Part shown: piece by piece, positions 11,671 to 63,854 of the stretch | Layout of the letters: the number at the start of each line of letters is the position of its first letter | Numbering within the stretch: the first letter of the stretch is position 1 | NCBI GenBank assembly: GCA_947090525.1 | Contig: CAMUON010000001.1 | Span: forward strand, 388,473 to 452,472 | Origin: an uncultured Atopobium sp. | GTDB taxonomy: Bacteria; Actinomycetota; Coriobacteriia; Coriobacteriales; Atopobiaceae | DNA: 64,000 nucleotides | Direction of reading: 5' to 3' | Notes under the pieces: model-generated | Told to the model about the DNA's origin: nothing | The model's database searches: none | Seen by the model: the letters and a program-made list of their open reading frames with translations, nothing else | Made by a program: the position numbers and the translations under genes

Positions 11671-11886
11671 ACAAAACCCACACGCTCATATTAGAAAAAT
11701 ACCCCACTTTGTCACGTGTTCGGGCGCTGCACACGCGCGGGGCGGCCGAAACCGTTTTGCGTTTGCCCAGGTAATTTTCTTTTAGCATGTTGGTGCGGCT
11801 CTCAAAAGTGCCTACGAGGGCGATTTTCGGCTCCAGAACCCGTGACAAAGTGGGGTAAAGTTCTAATATCACTCATCACGTTTTGT
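11671..11886 (+). mobile_element. MITE-like 216-bp element, copy 1 (imperfect terminal inverted repeats of about 45 bp)
   Basis: Termini ACAAAAC...CATATTAGAAAAATACCCCACTTTGTCACGTG and CACGTGACAAAGTGGGGTAAAGTTCTAATATCACTCA..ACGTTTTGT are inverted copies of each other. A second, same-length copy is at 40513-40728. Confidence 0.55.
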
Positions 11887-12288
11887 TAGAGGCTAGCGCG
11901 CACATGTTTTGCGCCACATTTTAGTCTGCGCCCGCATCAGAGCCCGCCCGCACCCGTACTCGCGCTCCCGTCTGCACCCGCCCCCGCGCCCGTCTGCGTA
12001 CCCCCAGTCCTGCGCTCGCGTTCCTGCCAAACCTAGCGAATACGGAGAAGCAGGTAAATACGTAGATTTTACCGATAAGGATGGAGAACAAGCCACTGTA
12101 TTATCAATCGTATAGCACAAAGTGTCGGGGGGCGTCGCTTTTTTGGGTTTGCCCTGTGATACACTTTGAAGTAGCTCGCACCAAGCACAAGCGGTTGAAA
12201 TAGCGAAGAAGAACGAGGACTTGGCGTATAAAGTGAACTGGATGAGTTGTATCTTGTGAGCAGTATATCAACATAAGGAGAAACCCAC

Positions 12289-13618: not shown

Positions 13619-14557
13619 ATGACACCATACATTACTCGTCGACATGCATGTCATCTGGGAGTCGGCCTACTCGCTAGTGCTGCTAGTTTGATAGTAGCAA
13701 GCTGCGCAAAGACGGATCAGGACAGCACGGGATCCTCTAGCTCGGATTCGCAAAATGCGCAAGATCCGCAAAACCTACAGGGAAAGATTTCCCTTGCCGG
13801 CAGCACCTCGATGGAAAAGATGTGCGAAGCGCTCAGCGAAGGCTTTATGAACGCATACCCCAACGTGCATGTTTCGGTGGAATACACAGGTTCAAGTGCC
13901 GGGATTGAATCGCTTCAACAAAACTTGTGTGACATTGCGAATAGCTCTCGTGAGCTTTCTGAAGCAGAAAAATCATCGGGTATTGTGGGCAATGTGGTCG
14001 CGCTCGACGGTATCGCCATTATCGTTAACAAGGAAAATAACTGCAAAAACCTTACAACAGACCAGCTCAAACAAATTTTTACACGATCGATAAGCTCTTG
14101 GAGTGATGTAGGTGGATCAAACGCTGCGATTGTGGTCATCGGTCGTGAAAACGCCTCGGGCACCCGCAGCGCGTTCGAGGAGCTTGTTGGCGTTAAAAAT
14201 GCTTGCGCATATGCACAGGAGCTTGACTCAACAGGAGCTGTGCTCGCAAAAGTTGCTTCAACGCCCGGCGCAATCGGATATATTTCGTTCGACGCCATTT
14301 CGGATGCGGTGCACGCGCTCGCACTTGACGGCGTAGACATAACAGAAGATGCAATAGCCTCACAGAAGTATCCGCTTGTACGCCCATTTATTATGGCTAC
14401 GAAAGGGGAAGTGTCTGCACAATCGTCGCTGGTACAGGCGTGGTTCTCGTATATAGCCTCAGACGAAGGCATACAGACTATAAAAAGTGCTGGTGTTTTG
14501 CCTGCGAGTGCAGCCCCGTCTGCTAAGTCATCCGCGGCGGCACAGCCAGCACAGTAG
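13619..14557 (+). CDS. pstS: Phosphate ABC transporter substrate-binding lipoprotein
   Basis: Lipobox (LIVASC). PBP-fold phosphate-binding motifs (GSTSMEK, SGTRSAFEE). GGAG RBS. Confidence 0.85.
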   Translation: MTPYITRRHACHLGVGLLASAASLIVASCAKTDQDSTGSSSSDSQNAQDPQNLQGKISLAGSTSMEKMCEALSEGFMNAYPNVHVSVEYTGSSAGIESLQQNLCDIANSSRELSEAEKSSGIVGNVVALDGIAIIVNKENNCKNLTTDQLKQIFTRSISSWSDVGGSNAAIVVIGRENASGTRSAFEELVGVKNACAYAQELDSTGAVLAKVASTPGAIGYISFDAISDAVHALALDGVDITEDAIASQKYPLVRPFIMATKGEVSAQSSLVQAWFSYIASDEGIQTIKSAGVLPASAAPSAKSSAAAQPAQ

Positions 14558-14567
14558 AAGGTGTCAC

Positions 14568-15479
14568 ATGCTTCTTCACAAACAACAAAGCGTGCAAGAA
14601 CGTATCGCACAAACGGTATGCGCCGCCGCAGCCTGTATTGCGGTACTCGCGGTGGCGTCCATGAGTATATACATTATATCAAGCGGCTTACCAGCGCTTA
14701 TGCAAATTGGCATTGGGAATATGATCTGTGGCACCCAGTGGAGCCCAACAACACATCCTCCCGTATTCGGCATCGGCTACATCATTCTTTCGTCCATTAT
14801 CGCAACAGTGGTAAGCGTTTGTATTGGATTACCTTTGAGTATATTCATGTCGATGTATATAACGGAGCTTGCTCCCAAGCGCGTGGCATCGATTGTAAGC
14901 AGCTTTATTGAGCTCTTGGCGGGCATCCCTTCTGTGATTTACGGTCTTGTGGGCATGGTGGTCTTGTGCCCGCTTTTGTATCGCATTGAGCTATTCGTAT
15001 ACAACGGCGATCCGTCGCATCAATACTCTGGCGGTTCCAATATGTGCGCCTGCGTATGCGTGCTTGCAATTATGGTGCTTCCCACCATGATAGGGATGAG
15101 CGTATCTGCGCTTCGCGCGGTGCCTTTGTCCCTTCGCGCTTCGTCGTATGCACTAGGAGCTACGCGCGTACAAACAATCATAAAAGTTGTTATCCCTGCA
15201 GCTAAATCGGGTATTTTCGCTGCAGTTGTGTTGGGTGTTGGTCGCGCTTTGGGAGAAGCTATGGCAATTAGCATGGTAGCTGGTGGGGGAGTGAATCTAC
15301 CGCTTCCGTTTGCATCGGTGCGCCTGCTTACAACCCAGCTCGTAAGCGAAATGAGCTATGCGCAAGGCCTTCATAAAGAAGCGCTGTTTGCGGTGGGGGT
15401 CGTTCTGTATGTATTTATTATCTGCATAAATAGTCTCGTGTTATTCACAAAACGAAAGAAGCGCTGCTATGGAAAATAA
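14568..15479 (+). CDS. pstC: Phosphate ABC transporter permease
   Basis: Multi-TM permease immediately after pstS. ATG at 14568 preceded by GAAGGTG. The longer ORF from 14487 overlaps pstS. Confidence 0.85.
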   Translation: MLLHKQQSVQERIAQTVCAAAACIAVLAVASMSIYIISSGLPALMQIGIGNMICGTQWSPTTHPPVFGIGYIILSSIIATVVSVCIGLPLSIFMSMYITELAPKRVASIVSSFIELLAGIPSVIYGLVGMVVLCPLLYRIELFVYNGDPSHQYSGGSNMCACVCVLAIMVLPTMIGMSVSALRAVPLSLRASSYALGATRVQTIIKVVIPAAKSGIFAAVVLGVGRALGEAMAISMVAGGGVNLPLPFASVRLLTTQLVSEMSYAQGLHKEALFAVGVVLYVFIICINSLVLFTKRKKRCYGK

Positions 15480-30043: not shown

Positions 30044-30114
30044 AATATTGGCCGCACCTACGCGCGCGGAAGCTGAAAACCTTTCCCTATGTAAATTCTC
30101 TTACGCTCACTACC

Positions 30115-30165
30115 GGATGTTTTGTGGATAGACCGAAGACATAACGGTCTACCACAAAACATCCT
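30115..30165 (+). repeat. Perfect 21-bp-stem / 9-nt-loop hairpin element, copy 1
   Basis: GGATGTTTTGTGGATAGACCG aagacataa CGGTCTACCACAAAACATCC. Recurs with about 75 bp of conserved flank at 63675-63725. Confidence 0.7.
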
Positions 30166-30572
30166 CCTCGTTCGCGTAAAAGTCCTACCAGGGTTTTCAT
30201 CTCGCGCGCGTAGCAGCAAGCCCGCGCGTGGGGAAACGGGTTTTAGCAGGAAAAGGCTTGCACGGGGCACTCACCAGCTTAAGCGCACATCCTGCGTGGG
30301 CATCTACCTGGGATTTCGGCTGACGTGCGCGTAGCAGCAAGCCCGCGCGTAAGGAAAGAGCTTAAACATGCAAAGGCTGGCGCAGATGCGTACCCAGCTT
30401 AAGCAAGCTCGTGCGCGCGCAAAAAGCCCCCGCGTGGGGGGCCTGGCTTAACATGAAAAATCTGGTGCAAACGCGCGCCCGCAGGCGATGAAAAGCCTGG
30501 TAGCAGACGTAAAGGAATTAGAAGTATTTTGTTGATGCAGGCGCGCCCCGGCTGAAGCTCACATGCAGGTAT

Positions 30573-52207: not shown

Positions 52208-52284
52208 GGTGGGTGTAGCTCAGTTGGGAGAGCGCCGGACCGTGGCTCCGGAGGTCGAGGGTTCGAGACCCTCTACCCACCCCA
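52208..52284 (+). tRNA. tRNA-His (anticodon GTG) with encoded G-1 and C73
   Basis: G-1:C73 extra pair (His identity element). Anticodon stem CCGGA/TCCGG, loop CCGTGGC, encoded CCA. Position 33 reads C (unusual); verify with tRNAscan-SE. Confidence 0.75.
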
Positions 52285-52314
52285 TGTTGCTTGTCAATGC
52301 GTGCGTTTTGGAAT

Positions 52315-52390
52315 GGGTCGTTAGCTCAGTTGGTAGAGCAGGGGACTCTTAATCCCAAGGTCGAGGGTTCGACCCCCTCACGACCCACCA
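52315..52390 (+). tRNA. tRNA-Lys (anticodon CTT)
   Basis: First 27 nt match the textbook bacterial tRNA-Lys (GGGTCGTTAGCTCAGTTGGTAGAGCAG). Loop CTCTTAA, encoded CCA. Confidence 0.85.
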
Positions 52391-52435
52391 TTCTTTTTTG
52401 ATTCCAGTCACCATATGTACTACGCGTGAGAAAGC

Positions 52436-52680
52436 GCGCGTGCGCGCCTGCTTAAGCTGGGTATGCATTGGCGCCAGTCTTTTTACGTACAAACCTTTTC
52501 TCCACACGGGGGCTTTTTGCTGCGCATGCGGGCTGGAAACCCCTAGTAGACTGTCCACGCGAACAATTCTTTACGACGTGCCGCACGAGCGAGGAAGCTG
52601 TTTTGTGGGAACGCGTTGCGGGTTTCCGCGTTCGCCGCAAAACCGTTAGCGAGCGCAGATGATTATGGAGCTTGTGGCCT
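52436..52680 (+). repeat. Island-flanking direct repeat, left copy (about 75% identical to 63228-63430)
   Basis: GCGCGCCTGCTTAAGCTGG...GGGGCTTTTTGCTGCGC...GCGCAGATGATT shared with the right copy. Confidence 0.55.
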
Positions 52681-52681
52681 T

Positions 52682-52878
52682 CCGCGCGAGCGTAGAAAAA
52701 AACGGGTTTTTATCTACCGTTTTGACCCGATTTTGACCAAAATCGAGCTCCTCCCGCACCGCCCAAAAAATCCCCGACGCGTTTACCTGCGTATATAAGA
52801 ATTTTAACTAATAAAAATAGTTGAATTATTGATATTTTGGTAGATAACAACCTGATTTTTTCTACGCTCTCCCGCGCG
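52682..52878 (+). mobile_element. 190-bp TIR element B, copy 1 (termini CCGCGCGAGCGTAGAAAAAAACGGG / GATTTTTTCTACGCTCTCCCGCGCGG)
   Basis: Terminal inverted repeats. Its AT-rich interior is the reverse complement of the interior of the copy at 63434-63626. Confidence 0.5.
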
Positions 52879-53112: not shown

Positions 53113-53252
53113 AGACAAAAGCCCCTCAGATGAGGGGCTTGCATATTGCAAGATTGGTACCTACGTACCGCCATACAAAACGTAATGGCTTTTAAGGTTA
53201 AACCTTTATTTTGACTTGCAGTGTCACTTTGACTGGAATCAAAGCAAGGCCA
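53113..53252 (-). ncRNA. Predicted tracrRNA (antisense, upstream of cas9)
   Basis: The plus strand at 53207-53250 carries a degenerate repeat-like sequence (TTTTGACTTGCAGTGTCACTTTGACTGG-AATCAAAGC versus repeat TTTTGGAGCAGTGTCATTTTGACTGGTAATCAAAC), so a minus-strand transcript carries an anti-repeat. Minus-strand terminator GCAAGCCCCTCATCTGAGGGGC plus TTTTGT at 53113-53140. Confidence 0.55.
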
Positions 53253-53281: not shown

Positions 53282-56200
53282 ATGAATTTACGTAAAGCCT
53301 CTGATTATAGTGTAGGACTTGACCTCGGGACTGGTTCGGTAGGTTGGTGTGCTGTAGATAACAATGGCTATCTTTATTCATTTAAGCGCAAGCCTACTTG
53401 GGGAAGTAGGGTTTATGATAGCGCAGCACCCGCAGCCGATGCACGTCAGTTTCGCAGCCTGCGCAGACGTTATGACAGAAGACGTCAGAGGATAAATCTA
53501 TTACAAGGGCTGTTTTCAGAGGAAATGAAACATGTAGACCCTGATTTTTTCATCCGCTTGAATCAATCGCAATTACTCAAAGAAGACAGAGATGAGACTT
53601 GTAAGGAATATGCATGTCCACTTTTTAAAACTGTTGCGGATGAAAAAGAGTATTACAAAACGTATCCAACGATTTACCATCTTCGCGCAGCTCTTATGCA
53701 TGCAAACCAGAAAATGGATTTGCGGTTAGTTTATCTAGCACTGCATAACATTGTTAAATATCGCGGTAACTTTTTGTATCAGGAATACGCTCATCTATCT
53801 GCAAAAGACGCAGGCTTATCCGAGCAATCTAGCAACTTTCTTACGAGTATTGAACATTTTGAAGACGATCGTTGTATAAGTTTTACTTATGATACCGCAG
53901 AAATTATTCATTTCCTGAATAATTTAAAGCCAACACGAGCACAAAATCGTGATGAATGGCAAAAGCTGTTTGTGTGTGAGGCAAGCGACGACATTCCTGG
54001 AAAACAGGCAAAAGACATCACTAAATGCATTGCTCAAGCAATATTCGGATATCAAGCTGATTTCTCAGCGCTATTTGGAACTGAAAAAGAAAAATCAAAG
54101 TTTACGTTATCTCAAGATGAAAAGGTTATGGCGTTCGAAGAGCTATGCCCCACAGAATTTCTGCCCTTATTTAACGCGCTTAAAGCAATGTATTCTGCAT
54201 ATCTTCTAACAACCATCATAAGAGGCTCCAATGGCGGCACAATTTCAAACGCAAAAATTGCTCAATATAATGCATATCACGATGACCTCGCAAAGCTTAA
54301 GAAGCTTGTGAAACGCATACTAGGCAAGGATGAGTACGATACATTCTTTCAGGGTGTATATTACAAGAATACCAAGTTGTACAACAAGCAAAAAGCAGAA
54401 GGATACACCGCTTACAACTTGGGCAAACTAAGCTACGATGAGTTCAAAAAAGACCTTAAAAAGTTGATTGAAAAACTCGAAAAAAGCGGGGTTTTGAGCG
54501 CTGAAGATGATGCGTGGGTACAGCAGATTCCTACTCGTGTGGACAACGAAGAATTTCTAAGACGGCTGAGAACGAGTGATAACGGTAGTATTCCTTATCA
54601 GTTACATCTTGAGGAAATGGACGCGATCATTAAAAACCAAGGCAAATACTATCCGTTCTTACTCAAAGAAAAAGACAAAATTGAGTCGCTTATAACGTTT
54701 AGGATTCCTTACTATGTAGGACCTCTTACTCTAAAAAATGCTGCACGCGATGCTTATGGTAAGACTCGCTTTGCATGGATACAAAAGAAAGAGGGCGCCG
54801 AAAAAACACGGATACTACCATGGAACTGGGAGGATGTTGTCGATAAACATGCAACGGCCGAAGCGTTTATTAGAAGAATGACTGGTAAATGTACTTATTT
54901 GTATGCTGAAGATGTACTTCCAAAGTGTTCACTTTTATATCAGAAGTTTTGTGCATATAACGAGCTAAATGGTATGCGCTGGACAACAGATAATGACCAG
55001 TATAATCGCTTTAGTGCCGACTACAGAGAGGGTGTTTATAACGATCTTTTTGTTAGGAGTAACGGAAAAGTTACGTACAAAAAGATAGAACACTGGCTCG
55101 AACAGCAAGGTGAATTGCACCCTCATGTAAAAGGCGGTCAGGGAGAAAACGGGCTTGAAAGCAGGCTTTCATCGTACCATTTCTTTAAAGATTTGCTCGA
55201 GTTTGATGTTCTTACAGCTCGGCAAGAAAAAGAAATCGAAAAGATTATTTTATGGAGCACCATCTTTGAAGATCGAACCATTTTGAAAGAAAAGCTCAAG
55301 GCTCAGTCGTTTCAAACTGAATTTACATCTGCGTTTAGTCGTGTTTTAACCGCAGAACAGATACAAAAAATTTGTAAAAAACGATTTACCGGCTGGGGCA
55401 AGCTTTCTAAAAAGCTGCTTACTGGTTTGTCTGTAGATATAGATGGTGAACGTCTTAACATTCTCGATTTGCTGATACACGGTGATGTAACAGATGGTCG
55501 TGCTGGCCGCGCGCTTATTTTTCAAGAGATTGTGACCATGAAGCAATTTAAGGAAGCAATATCAAAAACAAACGAAGAAGCGCTTTCGAAATGCATAATT
55601 GATATAGACGACCTACCTTGCTCACCAGCAGATAAACGCACGGTCAACCAGGCACTTCGCGTGGTAGATGAAATTGCGTCTATTGCTAGTTGCGCGCCCT
55701 CACGAATTTTTATTGAGGTCACACGAGAGGAGGATACAAAAAATAAAGGCAAACGTACAGACAAGCGCACTTCAAAGCTCGAAATGGGGCTCAAAAAGCT
55801 TCGTGACAGCGAGGACACCAAGGCCATTCTCGCAGAACTTTCTGCTCATAAAAATCTAGATGAAAAACTCACGCTATACTTTGCACAAAATGGAAAATCA
55901 CTGTATTCGGGCACGCCACTAGATATTAACGAGCTTTCGCATTATCAGGTAGATCATATAATTCCACAATCATATATAAAAGACGACAGCATAGACAACA
56001 AGGCACTTGTACTTGCAAGCGAAAACCAGCGTAAGAGTGACAGCTTACTCCTAGATGATAGTATTCGCAGAAAGATGAGCAATACTTGGACCGCGCTATT
56101 TAAGGCGGGTCTTATGAGCGAAAAGAAATTCAATAATTTGAAGTGCTCAAGCATTACAGATCGTCGGCTAAAATCGTTCATCAATCGGCAGCTGGTAGAA

Positions 56201-57484
56201 ACGAGCCAAATTTGTAAGTATGCCATGCAACTATTTAAAGCAAAGTACCCACATTGCGAGGTTATACCAGTTAAGGCGGGCATATCTTCTGGTATTCGCC
56301 ATACATGGAACATTGCTAAGTGCCGTGAGGCAAATGATTACCACCATGCGCACGATGCATATTTAGCGTGTGAGGTAGGGCGTTTTATACAGCTTCATTA
56401 TCCAAAAATTTATAGCAACCCAACGGCATACAACAAAGAAGTGCGTGGTCTTATACAGTCAAATATTGTACACAGCGCTAGTGAGGGGAATGGCAGATAT
56501 AGACTGCCGGGTGACTCAGGGTGGCTTACCTATAGTTTTGCGCATAAAAAGACCTCTGCGTGGGATTGTGATGCTGAGCGAGATCGTCTGCTAAAGTATG
56601 TTGACTACCCTGACTGCCATATCACGCGCATGGCATATATAGAAACGGGTGCATTTTGGGATCAGACACTTTATTCGCCTCATGCTGGGAAAAAAGATCT
56701 TATACCTCTCAAGAAACATCTTGACACTCATAAGTACGGCGGGTATTCAAGTAAAAAATACGCACTATTTTTCGTATATTCTTTGCAGAAGAAAAAAGGC
56801 AACAAGGAATATTGTTTATCCGGCTTACCCATAGCTACACTTGCGGAAGCCACTCATAACACAACAGGTAAAATCGATATGGATCGACTCATTCAACTTG
56901 AAGAACAATCTATTCAACTTGAAAAGCAACTTATCACAACTCATCATGCGCCTATCCAGATAGTACAGCCAATCGTGTATAAAAATCAGCTTATCGAATT
57001 TAAAGGGAGACGAGAAATAATTACAGGTAAAAAGGAACGAAGAAATGCTCGGGAACTTGCATTTAAGCAGCAGCATATGCGTTTGCTCAAGATGTGGGAT
57101 GGTGATCTTAAAGGGAAGTATCGTGAGAAAAAAGAAGGCGTTGACGAAGATTGTCTACTCAACGAGATGTTCGATTTGATATTAGAAAAGACGTCTCACT
57201 ATGCACCTATGTTGCATAAAAGACTACTAGACATCGTAAATGCAAACGCGAATGACTATTCACGTATCGAAATGATCTTTGCTGCAATTAAAGATCAAAA
57301 TGATAAAAAAGCTGTCTTGTTTAACATCATTAGCAATGCAAATGCAAATAAAAACATGATTGACTTGACGGCTATTGGGGGAAGTGCAAATTTCGGAGCA
57401 ATTAAAGATCAGCCTAAACAATTTGACATTATTGAACAATCAGTAACAGGTATGTTTGAGAAAAGGATTCACATTGGGATTTAG
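53282..57484 (+). CDS. cas9: Type II-A CRISPR-associated endonuclease Cas9 (about 1400 aa)
   Basis: RuvC-I (YSVGLDLGTGSVGWCAV), Arg-rich bridge helix (RRRYDRRRQRI), HNH (YQVDHIIPQS...N...S). Local GC about 40% versus the higher-GC flanks. Confidence 0.9.
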   Translation: MNLRKASDYSVGLDLGTGSVGWCAVDNNGYLYSFKRKPTWGSRVYDSAAPAADARQFRSLRRRYDRRRQRINLLQGLFSEEMKHVDPDFFIRLNQSQLLKEDRDETCKEYACPLFKTVADEKEYYKTYPTIYHLRAALMHANQKMDLRLVYLALHNIVKYRGNFLYQEYAHLSAKDAGLSEQSSNFLTSIEHFEDDRCISFTYDTAEIIHFLNNLKPTRAQNRDEWQKLFVCEASDDIPGKQAKDITKCIAQAIFGYQADFSALFGTEKEKSKFTLSQDEKVMAFEELCPTEFLPLFNALKAMYSAYLLTTIIRGSNGGTISNAKIAQYNAYHDDLAKLKKLVKRILGKDEYDTFFQGVYYKNTKLYNKQKAEGYTAYNLGKLSYDEFKKDLKKLIEKLEKSGVLSAEDDAWVQQIPTRVDNEEFLRRLRTSDNGSIPYQLHLEEMDAIIKNQGKYYPFLLKEKDKIESLITFRIPYYVGPLTLKNAARDAYGKTRFAWIQKKEGAEKTRILPWNWEDVVDKHATAEAFIRRMTGKCTYLYAEDVLPKCSLLYQKFCAYNELNGMRWTTDNDQYNRFSADYREGVYNDLFVRSNGKVTYKKIEHWLEQQGELHPHVKGGQGENGLESRLSSYHFFKDLLEFDVLTARQEKEIEKIILWSTIFEDRTILKEKLKAQSFQTEFTSAFSRVLTAEQIQKICKKRFTGWGKLSKKLLTGLSVDIDGERLNILDLLIHGDVTDGRAGRALIFQEIVTMKQFKEAISKTNEEALSKCIIDIDDLPCSPADKRTVNQALRVVDEIASIASCAPSRIFIEVTREEDTKNKGKRTDKRTSKLEMGLKKLRDSEDTKAILAELSAHKNLDEKLTLYFAQNGKSLYSGTPLDINELSHYQVDHIIPQSYIKDDSIDNKALVLASENQRKSDSLLLDDSIRRKMSNTWTALFKAGLMSEKKFNNLKCSSITDRRLKSFINRQLVETSQICKYAMQLFKAKYPHCEVIPVKAGISSGIRHTWNIAKCREANDYHHAHDAYLACEVGRFIQLHYPKIYSNPTAYNKEVRGLIQSNIVHSASEGNGRYRLPGDSGWLTYSFAHKKTSAWDCDAERDRLLKYVDYPDCHITRMAYIETGAFWDQTLYSPHAGKKDLIPLKKHLDTHKYGGYSSKKYALFFVYSLQKKKGNKEYCLSGLPIATLAEATHNTTGKIDMDRLIQLEEQSIQLEKQLITTHHAPIQIVQPIVYKNQLIEFKGRREIITGKKERRNARELAFKQQHMRLLKMWDGDLKGKYREKKEGVDEDCLLNEMFDLILEKTSHYAPMLHKRLLDIVNANANDYSRIEMIFAAIKDQNDKKAVLFNIISNANANKNMIDLTAIGGSANFGAIKDQPKQFDIIEQSVTGMFEKRIHIGI

Positions 57485-58355
57485 AACTGTCATCCTCAAT
57501 ACTCCCTGTCGATGCACCTATCAAGGTGGGTACCTGGTTGTTCGTCAAGAGGACAAGCAGCCGCGGGTTCACCTTGGTGAGATTTCATCTATTATGCTTG
57601 GTACCGAGCAGATATTCCTAAGTGCGTATTTGCTTGCTGAGCTCGCAAAACTTAAAATTCCTGTAATTGTTACTGACGAAAAGCATAACCCCGTGGGTGA
57701 ATACTTACCCCTCTATGGCGCGCATAACTGCTCAAAATGTATGCTTGAGCAGCTCGCATGGGGCGAAGTGATAAAAAAACAAGTATGGCGCAGCATTGTT
57801 CAACACAAAATACTGCAACAGAGTTCCATGCTCGCTTATCTTGGCTACTCGGATGCAGCGAAAACATTGGAAGAATATGCCTCAAAAACAAAATCCGGCG
57901 ATACTACCAAAAGAGAAGCCGTGGCCGCTCGACTGTATTTCCTGACACTGTTTGGATCTGAGTTTACAAGAGATCAAAACACTCCTTTGAATGCCTGTTT
58001 GAACTATGGATATGCCATTCTATTGGCGCATGCAAACAGAGAAATTGTGTCTCACGGATATCTCACGCAACTCGGTATTTTTCACCGCAGCGAATTTAAT
58101 CACTTTAATTTGGCGTGTGACCTTATAGAGCCGTTCCGGCCGCTTATCGATAAAATTGTATGTGAACATTTTGCACAGAATTTCGATAATGATATACGAC
58201 ATGCGCTTTGTGGTTTCGTGGATTATCAGCTGTTCTATATGAACGGTAGATACAAAGCGGCGTCTGTAATTAAGTCGTACATATCAGACTGTTTAGCTGC
58301 ACTCAACAAAGAGAAACTTCCTGCCGAAATTAAGCCATTTGGGTTCATACTATGA
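57456..58355 (+). CDS. cas1: CRISPR-associated integrase Cas1 (type II); possible TTG start at about 57474 giving MGFRTV
   Basis: Collinear with streptococcal type II-A Cas1 (GFRTVILN...YLPLYG...LNYGYAILLA...IEPFRPLIDK). Confidence 0.85.
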   Translation: MRKGFTLGFRTVILNTPCRCTYQGGYLVVRQEDKQPRVHLGEISSIMLGTEQIFLSAYLLAELAKLKIPVIVTDEKHNPVGEYLPLYGAHNCSKCMLEQLAWGEVIKKQVWRSIVQHKILQQSSMLAYLGYSDAAKTLEEYASKTKSGDTTKREAVAARLYFLTLFGSEFTRDQNTPLNACLNYGYAILLAHANREIVSHGYLTQLGIFHRSEFNHFNLACDLIEPFRPLIDKIVCEHFAQNFDNDIRHALCGFVDYQLFYMNGRYKAASVIKSYISDCLAALNKEKLPAEIKPFGFIL

Positions 58356-58684
58356 ATACGACAAGGATACGGTTTATGAGGTTGATAGTATTTTTTGATC
58401 TACCCATGGAGACCCATGCTCAGAAAAAGTCTTACACGGATTTTAGGAGATTTTTATTGCATGATGGCTATCTCATGATGCAAAAGTCTGTTTATGTCAA
58501 GCTCATTATCAATGAGCAAAATGCTTCGGCAGTCATTGCGCGCTTAAAACTTCATAAGCCGCAGTATGGCTTGGTTCAGTTACTGAAGGTGACCGAAAAG
58601 CAATACGCCAACATAGAATATGTTTGCGGTAACTCTAGCTCACAAAATATGGTTGAAACTCTGGAAAGCTTACTTATATTATGA
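58352..58684 (+). CDS. cas2: CRISPR-associated endoribonuclease Cas2
   Basis: IRFMRLIVFFDLPMET...KSYTDFRRFLLHDGYLMMQKSVY matches the canonical Cas2 N-terminus. Overlaps the cas1 stop. Confidence 0.85.
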   Translation: MNTTRIRFMRLIVFFDLPMETHAQKKSYTDFRRFLLHDGYLMMQKSVYVKLIINEQNASAVIARLKLHKPQYGLVQLLKVTEKQYANIEYVCGNSSSQNMVETLESLLIL

Positions 58685-59364
58685 ACATACGTTTTAGTGG
58701 CTTATCGAAAATAATTGACCTGAAGAAAGGGCATCCATTTTTTGTCTGTGTTGAGAACCGCCATCTTTATGCCAGATTTATATATTCACTTTTATCTGCA
58801 GCAGGAGAAGAGTCGCCTGAGCCATATACCTTGTGGAACGATAATGATGAAAAGCTCCAGCCCAAAAATCACTTTCTGTGGGTGACCGATCCCTTTCATC
58901 TGCCTTTCGAAAACAAGCTTCTAATGGGTGAAGTACTCAACGGAATTGCAAGCAGCATTGATGATGGCTTTGAAACCCAGGAAGAGTTTAAAGATATAAC
59001 GAGACAGTTATACAAGCTTTTTCTGTTGGAAACGTATCAGTATAAAGGTAATTATGCTATTTCACCTGATGTTGACATTCACAAGATTCTCAAGCTCATG
59101 AGTTTTTCTCCAGACACGTCCCGGGACAATAATTTTCTAGATGAGCTAATCAACTTTATACATATTGCCAGAGACGCATCTCTGATTCAGCCAATCGTTT
59201 TTGTGGGAATTTGTTCTTTTTTGACTGTTAAAGAGATAGAATTATTGCTAGAAGAGATAAAAAATTCTTGTTTATGCGTGCTGTTTTTTGAAAATCGAAT
59301 TCCCTGTGATGCTGTTTATGAAGAAGAGCATATACTACTTGACCTGGATTTTCTTGAGAGTTAA
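58681..59364 (+). CDS. csn2: Csn2 (type II-A signature protein)
   Basis: 227 aa immediately after cas2 and before the array. Architecture like the short-form Csn2. Confidence 0.75.
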   Translation: MNIRFSGLSKIIDLKKGHPFFVCVENRHLYARFIYSLLSAAGEESPEPYTLWNDNDEKLQPKNHFLWVTDPFHLPFENKLLMGEVLNGIASSIDDGFETQEEFKDITRQLYKLFLLETYQYKGNYAISPDVDIHKILKLMSFSPDTSRDNNFLDELINFIHIARDASLIQPIVFVGICSFLTVKEIELLLEEIKNSCLCVLFFENRIPCDAVYEEEHILLDLDFLES

Positions 59365-59419: not shown

Positions 59420-60639
59420 GTTTTGGAGCAGTGTCATTTTGACTGGTAATCAAACTCTTGGGCTTACTATTACATTTAAGGCTGTGTTTTGGAGCAGTGT
59501 CATTTTGACTGGTAATCAAACGTGCTGCTTCTTTTTAAGCGAACTTATACCGTTTTGGAGCAGTGTCATTTTGACTGGTAATCAAACTATTGATTCTGAG
59601 GGTATGATTCATGTTGCGTTTTGGAGCAGTGTCATTTTGACTGGTAATCAAACTTAGTGTAAACTACGCCAGTGGTGTCGTTAGTTTTGGAGCAGTGTCA
59701 TTTTGACTGGTAATCAAACCAACGCTTATAGCGTAGTATGTAATGTGTGTTTTGGAGCAGTGTCATTTTGACTGGTAATCAAACAAGAAGCAGCACAACG
59801 ACACGAACGCGCTCGTTTTGGAGCAGTGTCATTTTGACTGGTAATCAAACATATTGCTACGAGGTATTATACGGTCGCGAGTTTTGGAGCAGTGTCATTT
59901 TGACTGGTAATCAAACCATCAACGCTATCTTTGGAGTGAACGTTACGTTTTGGAGCAGTGTCATTTTGACTGGTAATCAAACTGCGTTCGACGTGATCGA
60001 TTCGCTCGGGTTGTTTTGGAGCAGTGTCATTTTGACTGGTAATCAAACTATAAAGTGCATTATCAAGCCATTCACCTTGTTTTGGAGCAGTGTCATTTTG
60101 ACTGGTAATCAAACAGAATGTACCACGACGAGGAGAACGCGCAGTTTTGGAGCAGTGTCATTTTGACTGGTAATCAAACGCGAGGCCGTAGACCTTGAGG
60201 AAGCGACGGTTTTGGAGCAGTGTCATTTTGACTGGTAATCAAACCAGCGGACCTGATTTTATTCGGCTTATAGTGTTTTGGAGCAGTGTCATTTTGACTG
60301 GTAATCAAACCCGTCGGGTTGGCATACGATACCGAGTTCAGTTTTGGAGCAGTGTCATTTTGACTGGTAATCAAACGCGAGGCCGTAGACCTTGAGGAAG
60401 CGACGGTTTTGGAGCAGTGTCATTTTGACTGGTAATCAAACCAGCGGACCTGATTTTATTCGGCTTATAGTGTTTTGGAGCAGTGTCATTTTGACTGGTA
60501 ATCAAACCCGTCGGGTTGGCATACGATACCGAGTTCAGTTTTGGAGCAGTGTCATTTTGACTGGTAATCAAACTCTTGGTGCAAAATGTCTTTGAATGTG
60601 GTTGTTTTGGAGCAGTGTCATTTTGACTGGGGAATATCC
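59420..60639 (+). CRISPR. CRISPR array: 19 copies of the 36-bp repeat GTTTTGGAGCAGTGTCATTTTGACTGGTAATCAAAC, 18 spacers (29-31 bp), terminal repeat degenerate/truncated; leader 59365-59419
   Basis: Repeat starts at 59420, 59486, 59552, 59618, 59684, 59749, 59815, 59881, 59947, 60013, 60079, 60144, 60209, 60275, 60341, 60406, 60472, 60538 and 60604. Spacers 12-14 are exactly duplicated as 15-17. Confidence 0.95.
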
Positions 60640-60709
60640 ATTGACCTTATCATATATAACGAAGGTTATCATAATATATAACAACAACCTGAAACCAAAA
60701 GAGCCGGAT

Positions 60710-60796
60710 ATGGATCAGGTTGTTGTAATGTTTTTTATCAGCTTCTTATCAAATTTTTTAGCGGTAGTGTTAGCTGATGCAATCCGCAAGAAATAA
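60710..60796 (+). CDS. Small hydrophobic peptide (28 aa, MDQVVVMFFISFLSNFLAVVLADAIRKK); paralogue of 61527-61622
   Basis: Single predicted TM helix with C-terminal RKK. Same overall architecture as peptide B. Confidence 0.3.
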   Translation: MDQVVVMFFISFLSNFLAVVLADAIRKK

Positions 60797-60977
60797 AGAC
60801 AAGCTGATAGTATAGGTGAGGCGTGTTGACAGCGCGCCTTATTCTCATCCTACCAGATTAGGGGATGAGAATTGTAGAGCTCATAGGAATTTTGTTGGAC
60901 ACTCTCACGAGCTATAGAGCTTACCATTGGCAGGCTTGTTATGTATGGTTTTACCACAAAAGGAAGGAGCATGAGAC

Positions 60978-61166
60978 ATGGCGACAGAAGCAAGACTAAG
61001 AGCAAATAATAACTACGTTAAACACAACGTAAAGAAAGTATCAATAGCGTTTTATCCAAAAGACAAAGAAATGTATGCATGGGTCGCGCAACACCCTAGC
61101 AAGGCTGGTTATATTCGCGAGCTCATAGTAAAAGACATGCAGGCGAAAAGAGACAGCCAACATTAA
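60978..61166 (+). CDS. Ribbon-helix-helix (CopG/Arc/MetJ-like) small protein, paralogue 1 (62 aa)
   Basis: AAGGAAGGAG RBS. KKVSIAFYPKDKEMYAWV...YIRELIVKDM fits the RHH strand-helix-helix pattern. Paralogous to 61622-61819. Confidence 0.5.
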   Translation: MATEARLRANNNYVKHNVKKVSIAFYPKDKEMYAWVAQHPSKAGYIRELIVKDMQAKRDSQH

Positions 61167-61211
61167 AAAAGCTTGTATAAGCGTACAGCATGCATAACAA
61201 GTTTATAGAGA

Positions 61212-61246
61212 GGGCGGACGGTCATAATACGTTCGCCCTTTTTGTT
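61212..61246 (+). terminator. Rho-independent terminator (GGGCGGAC...GTTCGCCC plus T-run) after RHH paralogue 1
   Basis: GC stem followed by TTTTTGTTT. Confidence 0.55.
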
Positions 61247-61328
61247 TGTGTGTGCATTAACGTGCATACACTGGTACGATATAGAGTAGGTAGTATAATA
61301 ATAAGCAGCAAGAAAGGAGGTGGTTAAA

Positions 61329-61466
61329 TTGGACACCGAAGCACTCTTGCTGAACCTTTTATGCTCGGTTCTTGGTGGTTTGATTATTGAGCTACTGAAA
61401 TTGGGTATAAAAGAAGCTCCAAAGCTTAAGCTAGGGAAAGCAAAGAAAGCAAAGGAGCGAAAGTAA
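61329..61466 (+). CDS. Small peptide A (45 aa, TTG start): hydrophobic helix plus Lys-rich tail (…LGKAKKAKERK)
   Basis: Strong AAAGGAGG RBS 8 nt upstream of the TTG. Confidence 0.3.
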   Translation: MDTEALLLNLLCSVLGGLIIELLKLGIKEAPKLKLGKAKKAKERK

Positions 61467-61526
61467 CAAAGATGCTGGGGAGTTCGCTCCTCAGCGTCTT
61501 ACGTACAGTATAAAGGGGTGATTGCC

Positions 61527-61622
61527 ATGGAGCAATACATTTACATGATTATCACAAGCGCTTTGGGGTACCTTGTAGCGCACTATATCGTGAGGGTAAT
61601 AGAGGCTCTAAGAAAGAAGTAA
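61527..61622 (+). CDS. Small hydrophobic peptide B (31 aa, MEQYIYMIITSALGYLVAHYIVRVIEALRKK), translationally coupled (TAATG) to RHH paralogue 2
   Basis: AAAGGGG RBS. TM helix plus RKK tail. Its stop overlaps the next ATG. Confidence 0.35.
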   Translation: MEQYIYMIITSALGYLVAHYIVRVIEALRKK

Positions 61623-61819
61623 TGAAGATGGTTTCAGATGCACAGAAGCGCGCAAACGCTAACTATAAAAGGAGAAGCACTAAAACAAAGCAGATAGTGT
61701 TCTTTCCCGATGATATGGACTTGTTCGAGTGGGTAGGCACGCAGCCGAAACAAAATGCGTATCTAAAAGACCTCATCAGAAAGGATATGCAAGCTCACAA
61801 ACAAAATGAGCAGCAATGA
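61622..61819 (+). CDS. Ribbon-helix-helix small protein, paralogue 2 (65 aa)
   Basis: KQIVFFPDDMDLFEWV...YLKDLIRKDM. Paralogous to 60978-61166. Confidence 0.5.
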   Translation: MKMVSDAQKRANANYKRRSTKTKQIVFFPDDMDLFEWVGTQPKQNAYLKDLIRKDMQAHKQNEQQ

Positions 61820-61865
61820 GCAGCAATGAGCAAGAGTGAGCAGCTTTGAGCAGCAATGAGCAGCG
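61805..61865 (+). repeat. 10-bp tandem repeat (ATGAGCAGCA x6, with variants) at the 3' end of RHH paralogue 2
   Basis: Seen directly. The period is not a multiple of 3. Confidence 0.7.
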
Positions 61866-62037
61866 CTTATAGCGTAGTATGGAATTGTGAAGCCGTAGGG
61901 GAAACCTTGCGGCTTTTTAATAGGCGGGGGGTATCCTTTCTGAATACGCGCACCGCTCGACGCCATTCAAGAAAAGATGCTTGAGTGGTATTGCCTCGAG
62001 GATGCAAAAGAAGACGAACAGGACGACTTAATACGCG

Positions 62038-62904
62038 TTGACGCACGATCTTGGAGACGATGAATTCATGCGGCTCCTGGCGGAAGATGTAGGTTGCGAA
62101 GTCTATCACCATGCCAACCGTACAACAAAGCATAATGCCGCGAAAAACAGTGTCCGTTATGCGCGCGTGCCCTTTGGTAACTCATGTGCATTTTGCTTGA
62201 TGTTAAGTACCCGCGGCTTCGTGTACCTCTCAAGGACGTCAGCAGGTGAAGACAAGGGGCACTATCACGCACATTGCCATTGCAAAATCGTGGCAAGTAA
62301 GAAAGGTACCACGATCGACGGTTACGATCCTGAGGGGCTCGACTACCGCATACATCAAGTTGCTCAAGAGCTCGGCATTTCCGATTTTAATTGGCAGGAT
62401 TATATGCGCAATCCTGCTATGCAAGCTATGCTGCAAAAAGAAATACGTCTGCGTGACAAAGACTGGTTGCTTACAGGCATGCCGTCTGAGGTAGATTATG
62501 AAAATGAACTTGCTGAGAAGAACGCGCATGCCCATGAAATCGAGCAAGCTAAACGTTTGGCGCAGCACGGCATTAAGTGCACCTTTCAGGTTGATTATGA
62601 GGTTGATGAGAAGACAAAGGGCACAGCAAGACAGAAGACCATTGGCAAGACAGACCTCGCTAATGGTATTGAGCTTAAGAGCTTGGGACACACGACAAAC
62701 CTAAGAAAGAGGATAGAGAAAGAACTCAGGAACTCAAGAGATAAAAAGGGCTTTAAATCGTGTCATTTCGATGCATATGATACGGACTTTGATGAAATAG
62801 AAATATCAAAGGCTTTGAAGGACAAAATGAAACAAGTGCACATTAGGCGAAGTTCTTTTATAGACTCTGATGGGCAATATCACGTCGTTCAGGTAAATAA
62901 ATAA
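62038..62904 (+). CDS. Hypothetical protein with N-terminal Cys/His cluster (C-x2-C ... H-x-H-C-H-C), K/E-rich C-terminal half; AT-rich, probably of mobile-element origin
   Basis: GNSCAFC...GHYHAHCHC suggests a Zn-binding or HUH-like site. No confident family assignment. Confidence 0.4.
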   Translation: MTHDLGDDEFMRLLAEDVGCEVYHHANRTTKHNAAKNSVRYARVPFGNSCAFCLMLSTRGFVYLSRTSAGEDKGHYHAHCHCKIVASKKGTTIDGYDPEGLDYRIHQVAQELGISDFNWQDYMRNPAMQAMLQKEIRLRDKDWLLTGMPSEVDYENELAEKNAHAHEIEQAKRLAQHGIKCTFQVDYEVDEKTKGTARQKTIGKTDLANGIELKSLGHTTNLRKRIEKELRNSRDKKGFKSCHFDAYDTDFDEIEISKALKDKMKQVHIRRSSFIDSDGQYHVVQVNK

Positions 62905-63037
62905 AAAAGAGACTACGACAGGGTAACCCCCGAAGCAGCCTCTCTTATTACAGCCACTATACCACATCAACATCGTTAATCAAAGAGCCTGCATAGGCTC
63001 TTTTTTTATACATCCGCACGGATAGGAAGGACACATC

Positions 63038-63244
63038 ATGGCTAAAGATGATGTACAGCAAGTACAGGACGTCGAAGCGACAGACGCGCACGCAGAAGCT
63101 GCAGAAACCGATTGGAAAGCACAGGCGCGCAAATGGGAAAAACGCGCTAAAGAGAACAGCGCGGCAGCAGATGAGCTCGCCAAGCTTAAGGAGTCGCAGA
63201 TGACAGAGCTCGAACGCATTCAAGCGCGCATGCGCGCCTGCTGA
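63038..63244 (+). CDS. Small acidic/coiled-coil hypothetical protein (68 aa)
   Basis: ORF with an upstream GGAAGGA RBS-like sequence. Its 3' end runs into the right flanking repeat. Confidence 0.3.
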   Translation: MAKDDVQQVQDVEATDAHAEAAETDWKAQARKWEKRAKENSAAADELAKLKESQMTELERIQARMRAC

Positions 63245-63430
63245 AGCTGGTGAGTGCTCCGCATCAGCCTTTTCATGTACAAATTCGTTTCCTCACGCTG
63301 GGGCTTTTTGCTGCGCGTGAACAGAAAACCATGGTAGCAGGCGCAGATGATTTACAAGCATGCTGGTAGCTCGTGCAATAGACTTGCCATCAAGAATTTC
63401 TTGAGAACTTTCTTCTGCCGAGATTTTTAG
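63228..63430 (+). repeat. Island-flanking direct repeat, right copy
   Basis: See 52436-52680. Confidence 0.55.
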
Positions 63431-63433
63431 CCC

Positions 63434-63626
63434 CCGCGCGAGCGTAGAAAAAAACGGGTTTTTATCTACCAAAATATCAAAATTTCAACTAAATTCGATA
63501 GTTTAATTTCTTATATGCGCAGCTACGCGCTTTGGGCGATTTTTTGAGGTGCCGCGGGGGCCTCGAATTTGGCCAAAATCAGGCAAAAACGGTAGACAAA
63601 AAGGCCTTTTTTTCTACGCGCGAGAG
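63434..63626 (-). mobile_element. 190-bp TIR element B, copy 2 (inverted relative to copy 1)
   Basis: Same termini (CGCGCGAGCGTAGAAAAAAACGGGTTTTTATCTACC). The interior is the reverse complement of copy 1. Confidence 0.5.
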
Positions 63627-63674
63627 TGGGGGCAGAAAAGCCTGCCTTGTATATATTCATGTGCGCTCACTATC

Positions 63675-63725
63675 GGATGTTTTGTGGATAGACCGAAGAC
63701 CTAACGGTCTACCACAAAACATCCT
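63675..63725 (+). repeat. Perfect 21-bp-stem hairpin element, copy 2
   Basis: Identical stem to 30115-30165; loop aagacctaa. Conserved flanks GCTCACTA(C/T)C and ATCCTCCTCGTTCGC, plus about 60 bp of similar downstream sequence. Confidence 0.7.
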
Positions 63726-63854
63726 CCTCGTTCGCACGGATCTCCTACCAGGCTTTTCAGCGGCCGCGTGTGCGTAGCAAAAAACCAAGCGTGAGGAACG
63801 AGTGCAAGCTCGCTAACGCCTTCGCGGAAGCTTTTTCCTGCAGAAACCCTTCAC

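What the first reader, a model, noticed from the sequence alone, without database searches (positions are those of the whole stretch)
59720..61885. CRISPR spacer 5 has an 18-nt exact (23/29) match to DNA 2.1 kb downstream in the same island
Spacer 5 (59720-59748, CAACGCTTATAGCGTAGTATGTAATGTGT) contains CGCTTATAGCGTAGTATG, which recurs exactly at 61864-61881, just after RHH paralogue 2 and the 10-bp tandem repeat. Chance expectation for an 18-mer in 64 kb is about 1e-6. The PAM-proximal 8 nt of the spacer are mostly mismatched to this site (3/8), so Cas9 cleavage is unlikely. The match is consistent with the spacer having come from a relative of the element that now forms the post-array cluster, whose surviving copy carries seed mismatches. 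That points to the downstream cluster being phage or plasmid-like DNA.
Basis: seen in the sequence. Interest (0 to 1): 0.7.

Follow-up and report, generated by a model that had tools for sequence, protein, structure and literature searches.

The report
CRISPR spacer matching a disarmed prophage remnant
One spacer of a Cas9 CRISPR array partly matches a decayed prophage remnant beside the array; only this strain carries the spacer, and only this strain has two mutations in the critical part of the target, a clear natural example of a bacterium avoiding CRISPR self-attack, which is a known phenomenon.

Summary
Spacer 5 (59720-59748) shares an exact 18-mer with 61864-61881 and matches 61861-61889 at 23/29. 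No other copy exists in the window and none is expected by chance.

The DNA after the array is a decayed prophage remnant. Intact relatives in metagenome contigs carry spacer 5's protospacer (28/29, full seed, GAAG flank) just after the same small gene. Seven of the 15 unique spacers hit this phage family, with an N-R-A-R flank.

The same remnant follows the array in every sister lineage recovered (Fannyhessea vaginae-like). None of them has spacer 5, and all keep an intact seed and PAM. Five of the seven sister remnant alleles match spacer 5 at 29/29.

Only the window strain carries T->G at -8 and a 1-nt deletion at -4, next to the canonical Cas9 cut site. Against the nearest phage, these are two of only three point differences in about 280 nt (P about 0.002).

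Best reading: a phage-family spacer cross-reacts with a resident homologous remnant, and seed mutations in the chromosomal target prevent autoimmunity. This is a well-resolved example of a known phenomenon, not a new mechanism.

The parts
53115..53250 (-). Candidate tracrRNA. The anti-repeat is complementary to the CRISPR repeat and is followed by a hairpin terminator (aagcccctcatctgaggggctttt).
   Evidence: Repeat-like sequence at 53218-53251, 88% identical to the array repeats; sequence read on the minus strand. Rfam has no match. Expression was not tested.
53282..57484 (+). cas9, 1400 aa from the ATG at 53282, uninterrupted.
   Evidence: Pfam Cas9-BH, Cas9_REC, HNH_4, Cas9_RuvC and Cas9_PI all hit. 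ORF.
57456..59364 (+). cas1 (57456-58355), cas2 (58352-58684) and csn2 (58681-59364). The csn2 gene makes this a type II-A adaptation module.
   Evidence: Pfam Cas_Cas1, CRISPR_Cas2 and Cas_Csn2.
59420..60639 (+). CRISPR array: 18 perfect 36-nt repeats, a degenerate trailer repeat and 18 spacers (15 unique). The leader is on the csn2 side.
   Evidence: Polarity rests on the degenerate last repeat and on sister arrays sharing only their trailer-end spacers.
59720..59748 (+). Spacer 5 (29 nt), fifth from the leader.
   Evidence: It matches phage contigs at 28/29 and sister-strain remnants at 29/29, each with a GAAG flank.
60978..61166 (+). Small ORF 'RHH paralogue 1' (62 aa), part of the remnant and conserved in sister lineages.
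   Evidence: 41% identical to ORF 61622-61819. Hits phrog_4223, function unknown; no Pfam hit. dN/dS 0.28-0.38. The RHH fold was not confirmed.
61329..61622 (+). Two small hydrophobic ORFs (61329-61466, 45 aa; 61527-61622, 31 aa), also present in the intact phages.
   Evidence: No family match.
61622..61819 (+). Small ORF 'RHH paralogue 2' (65 aa). In intact phages it lies just upstream of the packaging genes.
   Evidence: The identical protein is encoded in phage contigs L001-L005. Its DNA is 99-99.5% identical to the phages but only 91-94% to sister remnants. A single-sequence AlphaFold model has low confidence, pLDDT 66.
61797..61863 (+). 10-bp tandem repeat (GAGCAGCAAT-like units) with variable copy number between strains and phages.
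61861..61892 (+). Disarmed protospacer for spacer 5. It is the ancestral CAGCGCTTATAGCGTAGTATGTAATGTGT|GAAG with T->G at 61882 (-8 from the PAM) and loss of the G at -4 (between 61885 and 61886). GAAG remains at 61889-61892, but it is out of register with the 18-mer match.
61889..61921 (+). Intrinsic-terminator hairpin after ORF 61622-61819. Its 5' arm contains the AAG of the PAM.
   Evidence: RNA fold -27 kcal/mol, z = -4.1, with a 12-bp stem followed by a U-run.
61956..62037 (+). 82-nt relic of the 3' part of the large terminase gene.
   Evidence: 84% identical to L001 11856-11937, inside the 510-aa gene that precedes the portal gene.
62038..62904 (+). 5'-truncated VG15 / head-maturation (MuF-like) gene fragment, 288 aa against 414 aa in the intact phage.
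   Evidence: Pfam VG15 profile positions 109-206 of 212. phrog_13257 positions 114-378 of 405. Broken differently in sister strains, at 82/182/276 aa.
63038..63244 (+). N-terminal fragment (68 aa) of the head scaffolding gene. Phage homology ends at about 63229.
   Evidence: phrog_9857 head scaffolding protein. 92% identical to L001 14821-15086. Weak hit to a Gordonia phage scaffold gene.

Best explanation
Spacer 5 is a genuine immune memory of a family of temperate siphophages that infect this Fannyhessea vaginae-like bacterium. A decayed prophage of the same family is fixed between the trailer end of the type II-A array and the gap-pgk-tpi operon. It keeps about 680 bp that include the spacer-5 protospacer, so the spacer cross-reacts with the cell's own chromosome (self-targeting, or heterologous autoimmunity).

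In this strain, and only in this strain, the chromosomal copy carries two changes in the PAM-proximal seed. One is T->G at -8. The other is a 1-nt deletion at -4, which shifts the PAM out of register. In the register of the 18-mer match the flank is AAGC, which is not a PAM, and 5 of the 8 seed positions mismatch. In the register of the surviving GAAG PAM, only 3 nt pair before the frame slips. Cas9 loaded with crRNA-5 should therefore neither cleave nor stably bind the chromosome, while still recognising the phage.

Shown:
- the match itself;
- the phage origin of the cluster;
- the intact protospacer and PAM in the phages and in all sister remnants;
- that the two seed changes are unique to this strain and clustered;
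- a complete cas9-cas1-cas2-csn2-tracrRNA-array locus.

Inferred:
- that selection against self-cleavage fixed or filtered these changes;
- that Cas9 and crRNA-5 are expressed and active;
- the order of events, which could be acquisition then escape, a pre-existing mutation that permitted acquisition, or import of a phage escape allele by recombination.
For: - Exact 18-mer and a 23/29 match; 0 expected by chance.
- The identical 65-aa protein is encoded in intact phage contigs. The window retains only L001 8956-9631, 11856-11937, 13887-14070 and 14821-15086.
- Spacers 4, 5, 7, 9, 13, 14 and 18 match those phages at 25-29 of 29-30 positions. Their 3' flanks on the best-matching contigs are CAAG, GAAG, TAAG, CGAG, CAAG, TGAA and TGTG. 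Spacer 18's less similar matches on L001-L004 carry TGAG, which points to an N-R-A-R PAM.
- Spacer 5 is the only one of these whose protospacer falls inside a retained remnant segment.
- The recovered sister loci give seven other remnant alleles and five other array types. None carries spacer 5. All have an intact seed and GAAG, and five of the seven remnant alleles match spacer 5 at 29/29.
- The two seed changes are 2 of only 10 window-unique changes in 688 aligned nt. The binomial P for 2 or more in the 8-nt seed is 0.002-0.006.
- Against the nearest sequence (phage L002/L003), 61606-61896 differs by only one SNP, one tandem-unit indel and the two seed changes. P(2 or more of 3 in the seed) is about 0.002 (the arithmetic is mine).
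- Cas9 has all its domains, and a tracrRNA candidate is present.
- Four spacers are newer than spacer 5, and spacer 4 hits the same phage. This implies the system stayed active after spacer 5 was acquired.
- Literature: target, PAM or seed mutation is a recognised way to survive self-targeting (PMC6990116, PMC7708048).
Against: - No experiment shows that this Cas9 is active, that crRNA-5 is made, or that the mutated site escapes cleavage. A 1-nt RNA bulge plus one mismatch is probably, but not certainly, non-permissive.
- No very close relative of the window strain was recovered; the nearest share 92-95% DNA identity in the cas region. The co-occurrence of spacer and mutated target therefore rests on a single lineage.
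- The locus is a recombination mosaic. csn2 is 100% identical to L012 while cas2 is 90%, and ORF 61622-61819 is 99% phage-like. 'Window-unique' is therefore relative to a limited sample, and an unsampled phage or strain could carry the same allele for unrelated reasons.
- The rest of the source genome could not be checked for other copies, for anti-CRISPRs or for repair genes.
Confidence: 0.78

Rival explanations
1. Neutral coincidence or reversed order. The two seed changes arose by ordinary drift in a non-coding linker of a decaying remnant, before and independently of spacer 5. The strain could then acquire and keep a phage-derived spacer that would have been lethal in its sisters. Selection would act only as a filter on acquisition, not on the target.
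For: The remnant is decaying and diverges 8-12% between lineages. The changed bases lie in a non-coding linker between two hairpins. The data cannot order the events. Spacer 5 has A at position 3 where the window's own remnant has G, which fits an external phage source better than self-acquisition.
Against: Two lineage-unique changes inside one pre-specified 8-nt seed are unlikely at the local rate (P about 0.002-0.006). This 29-nt site is otherwise almost invariant across the nine other phage and remnant sequences that cover it.
Confidence: 0.15
2. Regulatory self-targeting. crRNA-5 uses its partial complementarity to direct Cas9 to bind without cutting, repressing transcription around the ORF 61622-61819 terminator. 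This would resemble scaRNA/tracrRNA-guided repression in Francisella or the long tracrRNA in S. pyogenes.
For: Partial complementarity of 18 contiguous nt lies next to a gene's 3' end. Binding without cleavage through partial matches is documented for Cas9 (PMC6990116, section 'Partially Complementary Spacers').
Against: Such binding needs a PAM and PAM-proximal pairing. Here the complementarity is PAM-distal. The flank in that register is AAGC, not N-R-A-R, and in the PAM register only 3 nt pair. If crRNA matures as in S. pyogenes, the first 9-10 nt of the match are trimmed off. The match is absent from the arrays of all sister strains.
Confidence: 0.02
3. Uninformative repeat or chance. The 18-mer belongs to a dispersed or tandem repeat family, or is a random coincidence.
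For: The site abuts a 10-bp tandem repeat, and a dispersed intergenic repeat occurs nearby.
Against: There are only two copies in the window, with 0 in 100 shuffles. Only 3 nt overlap the tandem repeat. The 18-mer is absent from species-representative genomes apart from 3 unrelated hits. The full protospacer with PAM is found at the homologous place in phages.
Confidence: 0.01

Closest known systems
Self-targeting spacers against prophages, tolerated through target or PAM mutation (Stern et al. 2010 as reviewed in PMC6990116; Nobrega et al. 2020, PMC7708048)
   Same: A spacer in an otherwise intact CRISPR-Cas locus matches prophage-derived DNA in the same chromosome. The match is imperfect where it matters for interference, and the array kept acquiring spacers afterwards.
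   Different: The match is 79% ungapped (87% gapped), below the >90% cutoff used in the survey, so such screens would miss it. The target is a fixed, ancient remnant directly beside the array, not an intact prophage. Sister lineages and free phages give the ancestral state, so the polarity of the change is known. The survey paper lists this as unknown for type II.
Heterologous autoimmunity (Chen, Mayer and Balasubramanian, bioRxiv 10.1101/2021.01.04.425308)
   Same: A spacer acquired from foreign DNA cross-reacts with a similar self sequence.
   Different: That work models chance cross-reactivity. Here the cross-reactivity arises from true homology between circulating phages and a resident remnant.
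Phage escape from Cas9 by seed or PAM point mutations (established knowledge for type II-A in Streptococcus thermophilus and S. pyogenes)
   Same: The changes are confined to the PAM-proximal 8 nt. A single-base deletion shifts the PAM register.
   Different: The mutated copy is in the host chromosome, not in a phage. It may nevertheless have been imported from a phage escape mutant by recombination, because the flanking roughly 280 bp are 99.6% identical to phage contigs.
Chromosomal targeting that remodels or deletes islands (Vercoe et al. 2013, PMC3630108)
   Same: CRISPR pressure on integrated mobile DNA. Every other phage-matching spacer hits a region that has been deleted from the remnant.
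   Different: There is no evidence that the deletions were CRISPR-driven. The same deletions occur in sister lineages that have different spacers.

Membership tests
Type II-A CRISPR-Cas system | cas9 with RuvC, HNH, REC and PI domains | tested here: met
   Pfam Cas9-BH, Cas9_REC, HNH_4, Cas9_RuvC and Cas9_PI on the ORF ending at 57484.
Type II-A CRISPR-Cas system | cas1, cas2 and the subtype marker csn2, followed by the array | tested here: met
   Pfam Cas_Cas1, CRISPR_Cas2 and Cas_Csn2. The array follows at 59420-60639 with 36-nt repeats and 29-30-nt spacers.
Type II-A CRISPR-Cas system | tracrRNA with an anti-repeat | tested here: inconclusive
   A repeat-complementary sequence and terminator lie on the minus strand upstream of cas9. 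There is no Rfam match and no expression data.
Self-targeting spacer in the strict sense (at least 90% identity to a non-array site in the same genome; PMC7708048) | More than 90% identity between the spacer and a chromosomal site | tested here: not met
   23/29 (79%) ungapped, or 26/30 with one gap. It is better described as a former or disarmed self-target. The ancestral allele, seen in sister strains, would be 28-29/29.
Self-targeting spacer in the strict sense | A functional PAM next to the self protospacer | tested here: not met
   The PAM inferred from 7 spacers is N-R-A-R. In the register of the match the flank is AAGC. GAAG is present but shifted by the 1-nt deletion.
Prophage remnant of a temperate siphophage (SPP1-type portal, VG15/MuF, scaffold) | Homology and synteny with intact phage genomes, with structural genes truncated or deleted | tested here: met
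   Four collinear pieces of L001 are retained at 70-92% identity. There are truncated VG15 and scaffold ORFs. No integrase or attachment site was found in the window.
Cas9 binding-only regulation through partial complementarity (scaRNA or long-tracrRNA type) | A PAM plus PAM-proximal complementarity of about 11-15 nt at the regulated site | tested here: not met
   The complementarity is PAM-distal. Only 3 nt pair in the PAM register.
   No Pfam hit at E<0.1. Only phrog_4223, of unknown function. The single-sequence model has pLDDT 66 and shows helices only. The two ORFs are paralogous, at 41% identity.

The most novel reading that the evidence does not exclude
The two seed changes could be a physical scar of a real Cas9 self-cleavage event. 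The deleted base (-4) lies immediately next to the canonical Cas9 cut (between -4 and -3). A roughly 280-bp tract that is 99.6% identical to circulating phages (61606 to about 61896) ends at this protospacer. One reading is that Cas9 cut the chromosomal remnant (or an incoming phage) at this site and the break was repaired by recombination between phage and remnant, with a small error at the cut. This would be a natural record of CRISPR-triggered gene conversion between a phage and its chromosomal relic. The breakpoint position is not significant on its own: it lies in 33 of only 78 nt available to the right before homology ends.
Probability: 0.15. Interest if true: 0.65.

Novelty: new member of a known kind. 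Interest (0 to 1): 0.4.

Why it matters
It gives a clean natural case in which the direction of change at a self-targeted site is known. The ancestral state is preserved in seven other remnant alleles and in free phages. The derived, seed-disrupting state is found only where the spacer exists. Large surveys of type II self-targeting could not say whether non-consensus PAMs or targets arose by mis-acquisition or by later mutation, and their >90% identity cutoff would miss this case.

It also yields practical leads for a clinically relevant, little-studied vaginal bacterium (Fannyhessea vaginae-like):
- a family of temperate phages that its CRISPR arrays target;
- an inferred Cas9 PAM (N-R-A-R);
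- a divergent lineage whose protospacer flanks suggest a different PAM (NNGCC).

None of this changes how CRISPR immunity is understood.

Tried and rejected
- INPHARED phages: the array gave no hits, and the remnant gave only a weak Gordonia phage scaffold hit.
- IMG/VR: no match to the 18-mer. 75 portal relatives were fetched, but the closest is only 73-77% identical in DNA and none carries a spacer match.
- GTDB representative genomes: only 3 chance hits to the 18-mer, and the source genome is not in the collection.
- JGI metagenomes: spacer 5 in its array context was not found. A looser pattern found one divergent sister locus, L027.
- Exact-protein look-ups meant to find closer relatives of the window strain found nothing. 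This covers RHH1, both VG15-fragment starts and both Cas9 starts. The scaffold fragment returned only a known contig and a short one.
- A recombination breakpoint at the protospacer was considered as evidence for Cas9-induced recombination. I rejected it as significant, because only 78 nt of homology remain to the right and the informative interval is 33 nt.
- The idea that dispersed repeats at 52432-52869 and 63222-63759 delimit a mobile CRISPR island was rejected, because a third copy lies at 30072-30420.
- Testing the RHH fold with a single-sequence AlphaFold model gave low confidence, and I did not pursue it.
Full report
**1. The observation**

The window carries a complete type II-A locus:
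- a candidate tracrRNA on the minus strand at about 53115-53250;
- cas9, 53282-57484, with all Pfam domains;
- cas1, cas2 and csn2;
- an array at 59420-60639 with 18 perfect 36-nt repeats, a degenerate trailer repeat and 18 spacers, 15 of them unique.

Spacer 5 is 59720-59748 (29 nt). Its internal 18-mer CGCTTATAGCGTAGTATG recurs exactly once, at 61864-61881, and none of 100 shuffles gave any match. Ungapped, 61861-61889 matches the spacer at 23/29, and 3 of the 8 PAM-proximal positions match. No other spacer has more than an 11-nt match elsewhere in the window.

The 18-mer is not part of the 10-bp tandem repeat; only the first 3 nt of the protospacer overlap the last unit. It is also not a widespread repeat. 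A scan of 185,579 representative genomes found 3 unrelated hits. The source genome is not in that collection, so copy number outside the window was not measured.

**2. What the downstream cluster is**

The 65-aa ORF at 61622-61819 is encoded, with an identical protein, in metagenomic contigs L001-L005. These have the gene order of a temperate siphophage: integrase, cI/Cro, Bro/ANT, RusA, YqaJ-RecT-SSB, this ORF, two small ORFs, a 510-aa large terminase, an SPP1-type portal, a 414-aa VG15 protein, scaffold, capsid and tail tube.

The window retains only four collinear pieces of that genome:

| Window | L001 | Identity | Content |
|---|---|---|---|
| 61258-61941 | 8956-9631 | 91% | small ORFs, tandem repeat, protospacer, terminator |
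| 61956-62037 | 11856-11937 | 84% | terminase relic |
| 62099-62283 | 13887-14070 | 70% | middle of VG15 |
| 62964-63229 | 14821-15086 | 92% | start of scaffold gene |

The 288-aa ORF matches only the C-terminal half of the VG15 and head-maturation profiles, and the 68-aa ORF is a scaffold N-terminus. The post-array cluster is therefore a decayed prophage remnant.

The same remnant lies between the array and gap-pgk-tpi in every sister locus recovered (L012-L027). This includes a lineage whose cas region is only 84% identical. The remnant is thus old and fixed. A cluster member is named Fannyhessea vaginae by its source.

**3. Where the spacer comes from**

Seven of the 15 unique spacers (4, 5, 7, 9, 13, 14 and 18) match the phage contigs at 25-29 of 29-30 positions. 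Their 3' flanks on the best-matching contigs are CAAG, GAAG, TAAG, CGAG, CAAG, TGAA and TGTG. Spacer 18's less similar matches on L001-L004 carry TGAG. This gives an N-R-A-R PAM.

For spacer 5, phages L001-L003 have CAGCGCTTATAGCGTAGTATGTAATGTGT|GAAG. That is a 28/29 match with a complete seed, at the position homologous to 61861. Arrays of sister strains also target this phage family. Spacer 5 is the only window spacer whose protospacer falls inside a segment the remnant has kept.

**4. The key comparison**

None of the five other array types contains spacer 5. Every other remnant allele has an intact seed and PAM. Five of the seven sister remnant alleles (those in L012-L014 and L017-L025) read CAACGCTTATAGCGTAGTATGTAATGTGT|GAAG, a perfect 29/29 match to the window's spacer 5. 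L026 and L027 differ only at PAM-distal positions.

Aligned, the window copy differs from all of them by T->G at 61882 (-8 from the PAM) and by loss of one G at -4. A single deletion of that G is the only one-step way to obtain the window sequence.

As a result, the 18-mer register has flank AAGC, which is not a PAM. The register of the surviving GAAG (61889-61892) pairs only 3 nt before the frame slips. The AAG of the PAM is part of the stem of a strong terminator hairpin. That may explain why the seed changed rather than the PAM; this point is inference.

**5. Is the clustering more than chance?**

In 688 aligned nt with 13 other sequences, the window has 10 unique changes. Three of them are in the tandem repeat and two in the 8-nt seed. 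The binomial P for 2 or more in the seed is 0.002-0.006.

Against the nearest sequence, phage L002/L003, the stretch 61606-61896 differs only by one SNP, one extra tandem unit and the two seed changes. The chance that 2 or more of 3 point differences fall in 8 of about 281 nt is about 0.002 (my arithmetic).

**6. Mechanism**

The best explanation is cross-reactive self-targeting. A spacer acquired from this phage family matches the resident homologous remnant, and seed mutations in the chromosomal copy prevent Cas9 attack while leaving phage targeting intact.

Four newer spacers sit upstream of spacer 5, and spacer 4 hits the same phage. The system therefore stayed active after spacer 5 was acquired (inference from array polarity).

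The order of events is unresolved. There are three possibilities:
- escape after acquisition;
- a pre-existing mutation that permitted acquisition;
- import of a phage escape allele.

The last is plausible because the locus is mosaic. ORF 61622-61819 is 99-99.5% identical to phages but 91-94% to sister remnants, and csn2 is 100% identical to L012 while cas2 is 90%.

The deleted base abuts the canonical Cas9 cut site, which invites a repair-scar reading. This is speculative, and the breakpoint position is not significant on its own.

**7. Comparison with what is known**

Self-targeting spacers against prophages, and their tolerance through target or PAM mutation, are well documented (PMC6990116; PMC7708048). 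Cross-reactive 'heterologous autoimmunity' has been modelled (bioRxiv 10.1101/2021.01.04.425308).

This case fails the strict >90% identity definition of a self-targeting spacer and is best called a disarmed self-target. A regulatory, binding-only role is excluded by the lack of PAM-proximal pairing.

**8. Verdict**

This is a new, unusually well-resolved member of a known kind. It has moderate interest for its known polarity of change, the newly linked phage family and the inferred PAM.

Noticed in passing
window 59522-59551 and 59785-59814: Spacers 2 and 6 overlap by 12 nt in reverse complement (GTGCTGCTTCTT / AAGAAGCAGCAC). They were therefore taken from opposite strands of one 48-nt stretch of the same invader, which is still unidentified.
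   Followed up: partly
window 60142-60535: An exact 197-nt tandem duplication of a three-spacer block, so spacers 12-14 equal spacers 15-17.
   Followed up: partly
L027 (JGI metagenome contig ODUA01000290.1): A divergent sister lineage (cas region 84% identical) targets the same phages, but its protospacer flanks are TTGCC, GCGCC, TCGCC and CTGCC (NNGCC) instead of N-R-A-R. This suggests a PAM switch between closely related Cas9 proteins.
   Followed up: partly
L017, L019, L020, L022-L024 (csn2): In these sister strains csn2 is truncated to 203 aa by a 1-nt indel, and their arrays are the shortest (5-7 spacers). Spacer acquisition may be impaired there.
   Followed up: no
window 30072-30420, 52432-52869, 63222-63759: A dispersed intergenic repeat of about 100-300 nt at 73-84% identity, partly inverted and with internal palindromes. 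Two copies bracket the cas-array-remnant region and a third lies elsewhere. It is also present in sister loci.
   Followed up: partly
window 60978-61819 and sister loci: The small ORFs of the remnant (two paralogous 62/65-aa proteins and two hydrophobic peptides) stay intact with dN/dS of 0.03-0.38 across lineages. The structural gene fragments, by contrast, break in different ways. These small genes may be maintained or repeatedly refreshed from phages, and their function is unknown.
   Followed up: partly
L001 7319-9576: Four of the seven phage-matching spacers (4, 5, 7 and 9) come from a 2.3-kb stretch just upstream of the packaging genes. This would fit preferential type II-A acquisition near a genome end, but the cos/pac site was not located.
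   Followed up: no
window 58352-59364 compared with L012: csn2 is 100% identical to the L012 lineage over 684 nt, while the adjacent cas2 is only 90% identical. This is a sharp recombination boundary inside the cas operon.
   Followed up: no
window 52209-52390: tRNA-His and tRNA-Lys genes lie about 0.9 kb upstream of cas9. No integrase or attachment site was seen in the window.
   Followed up: no
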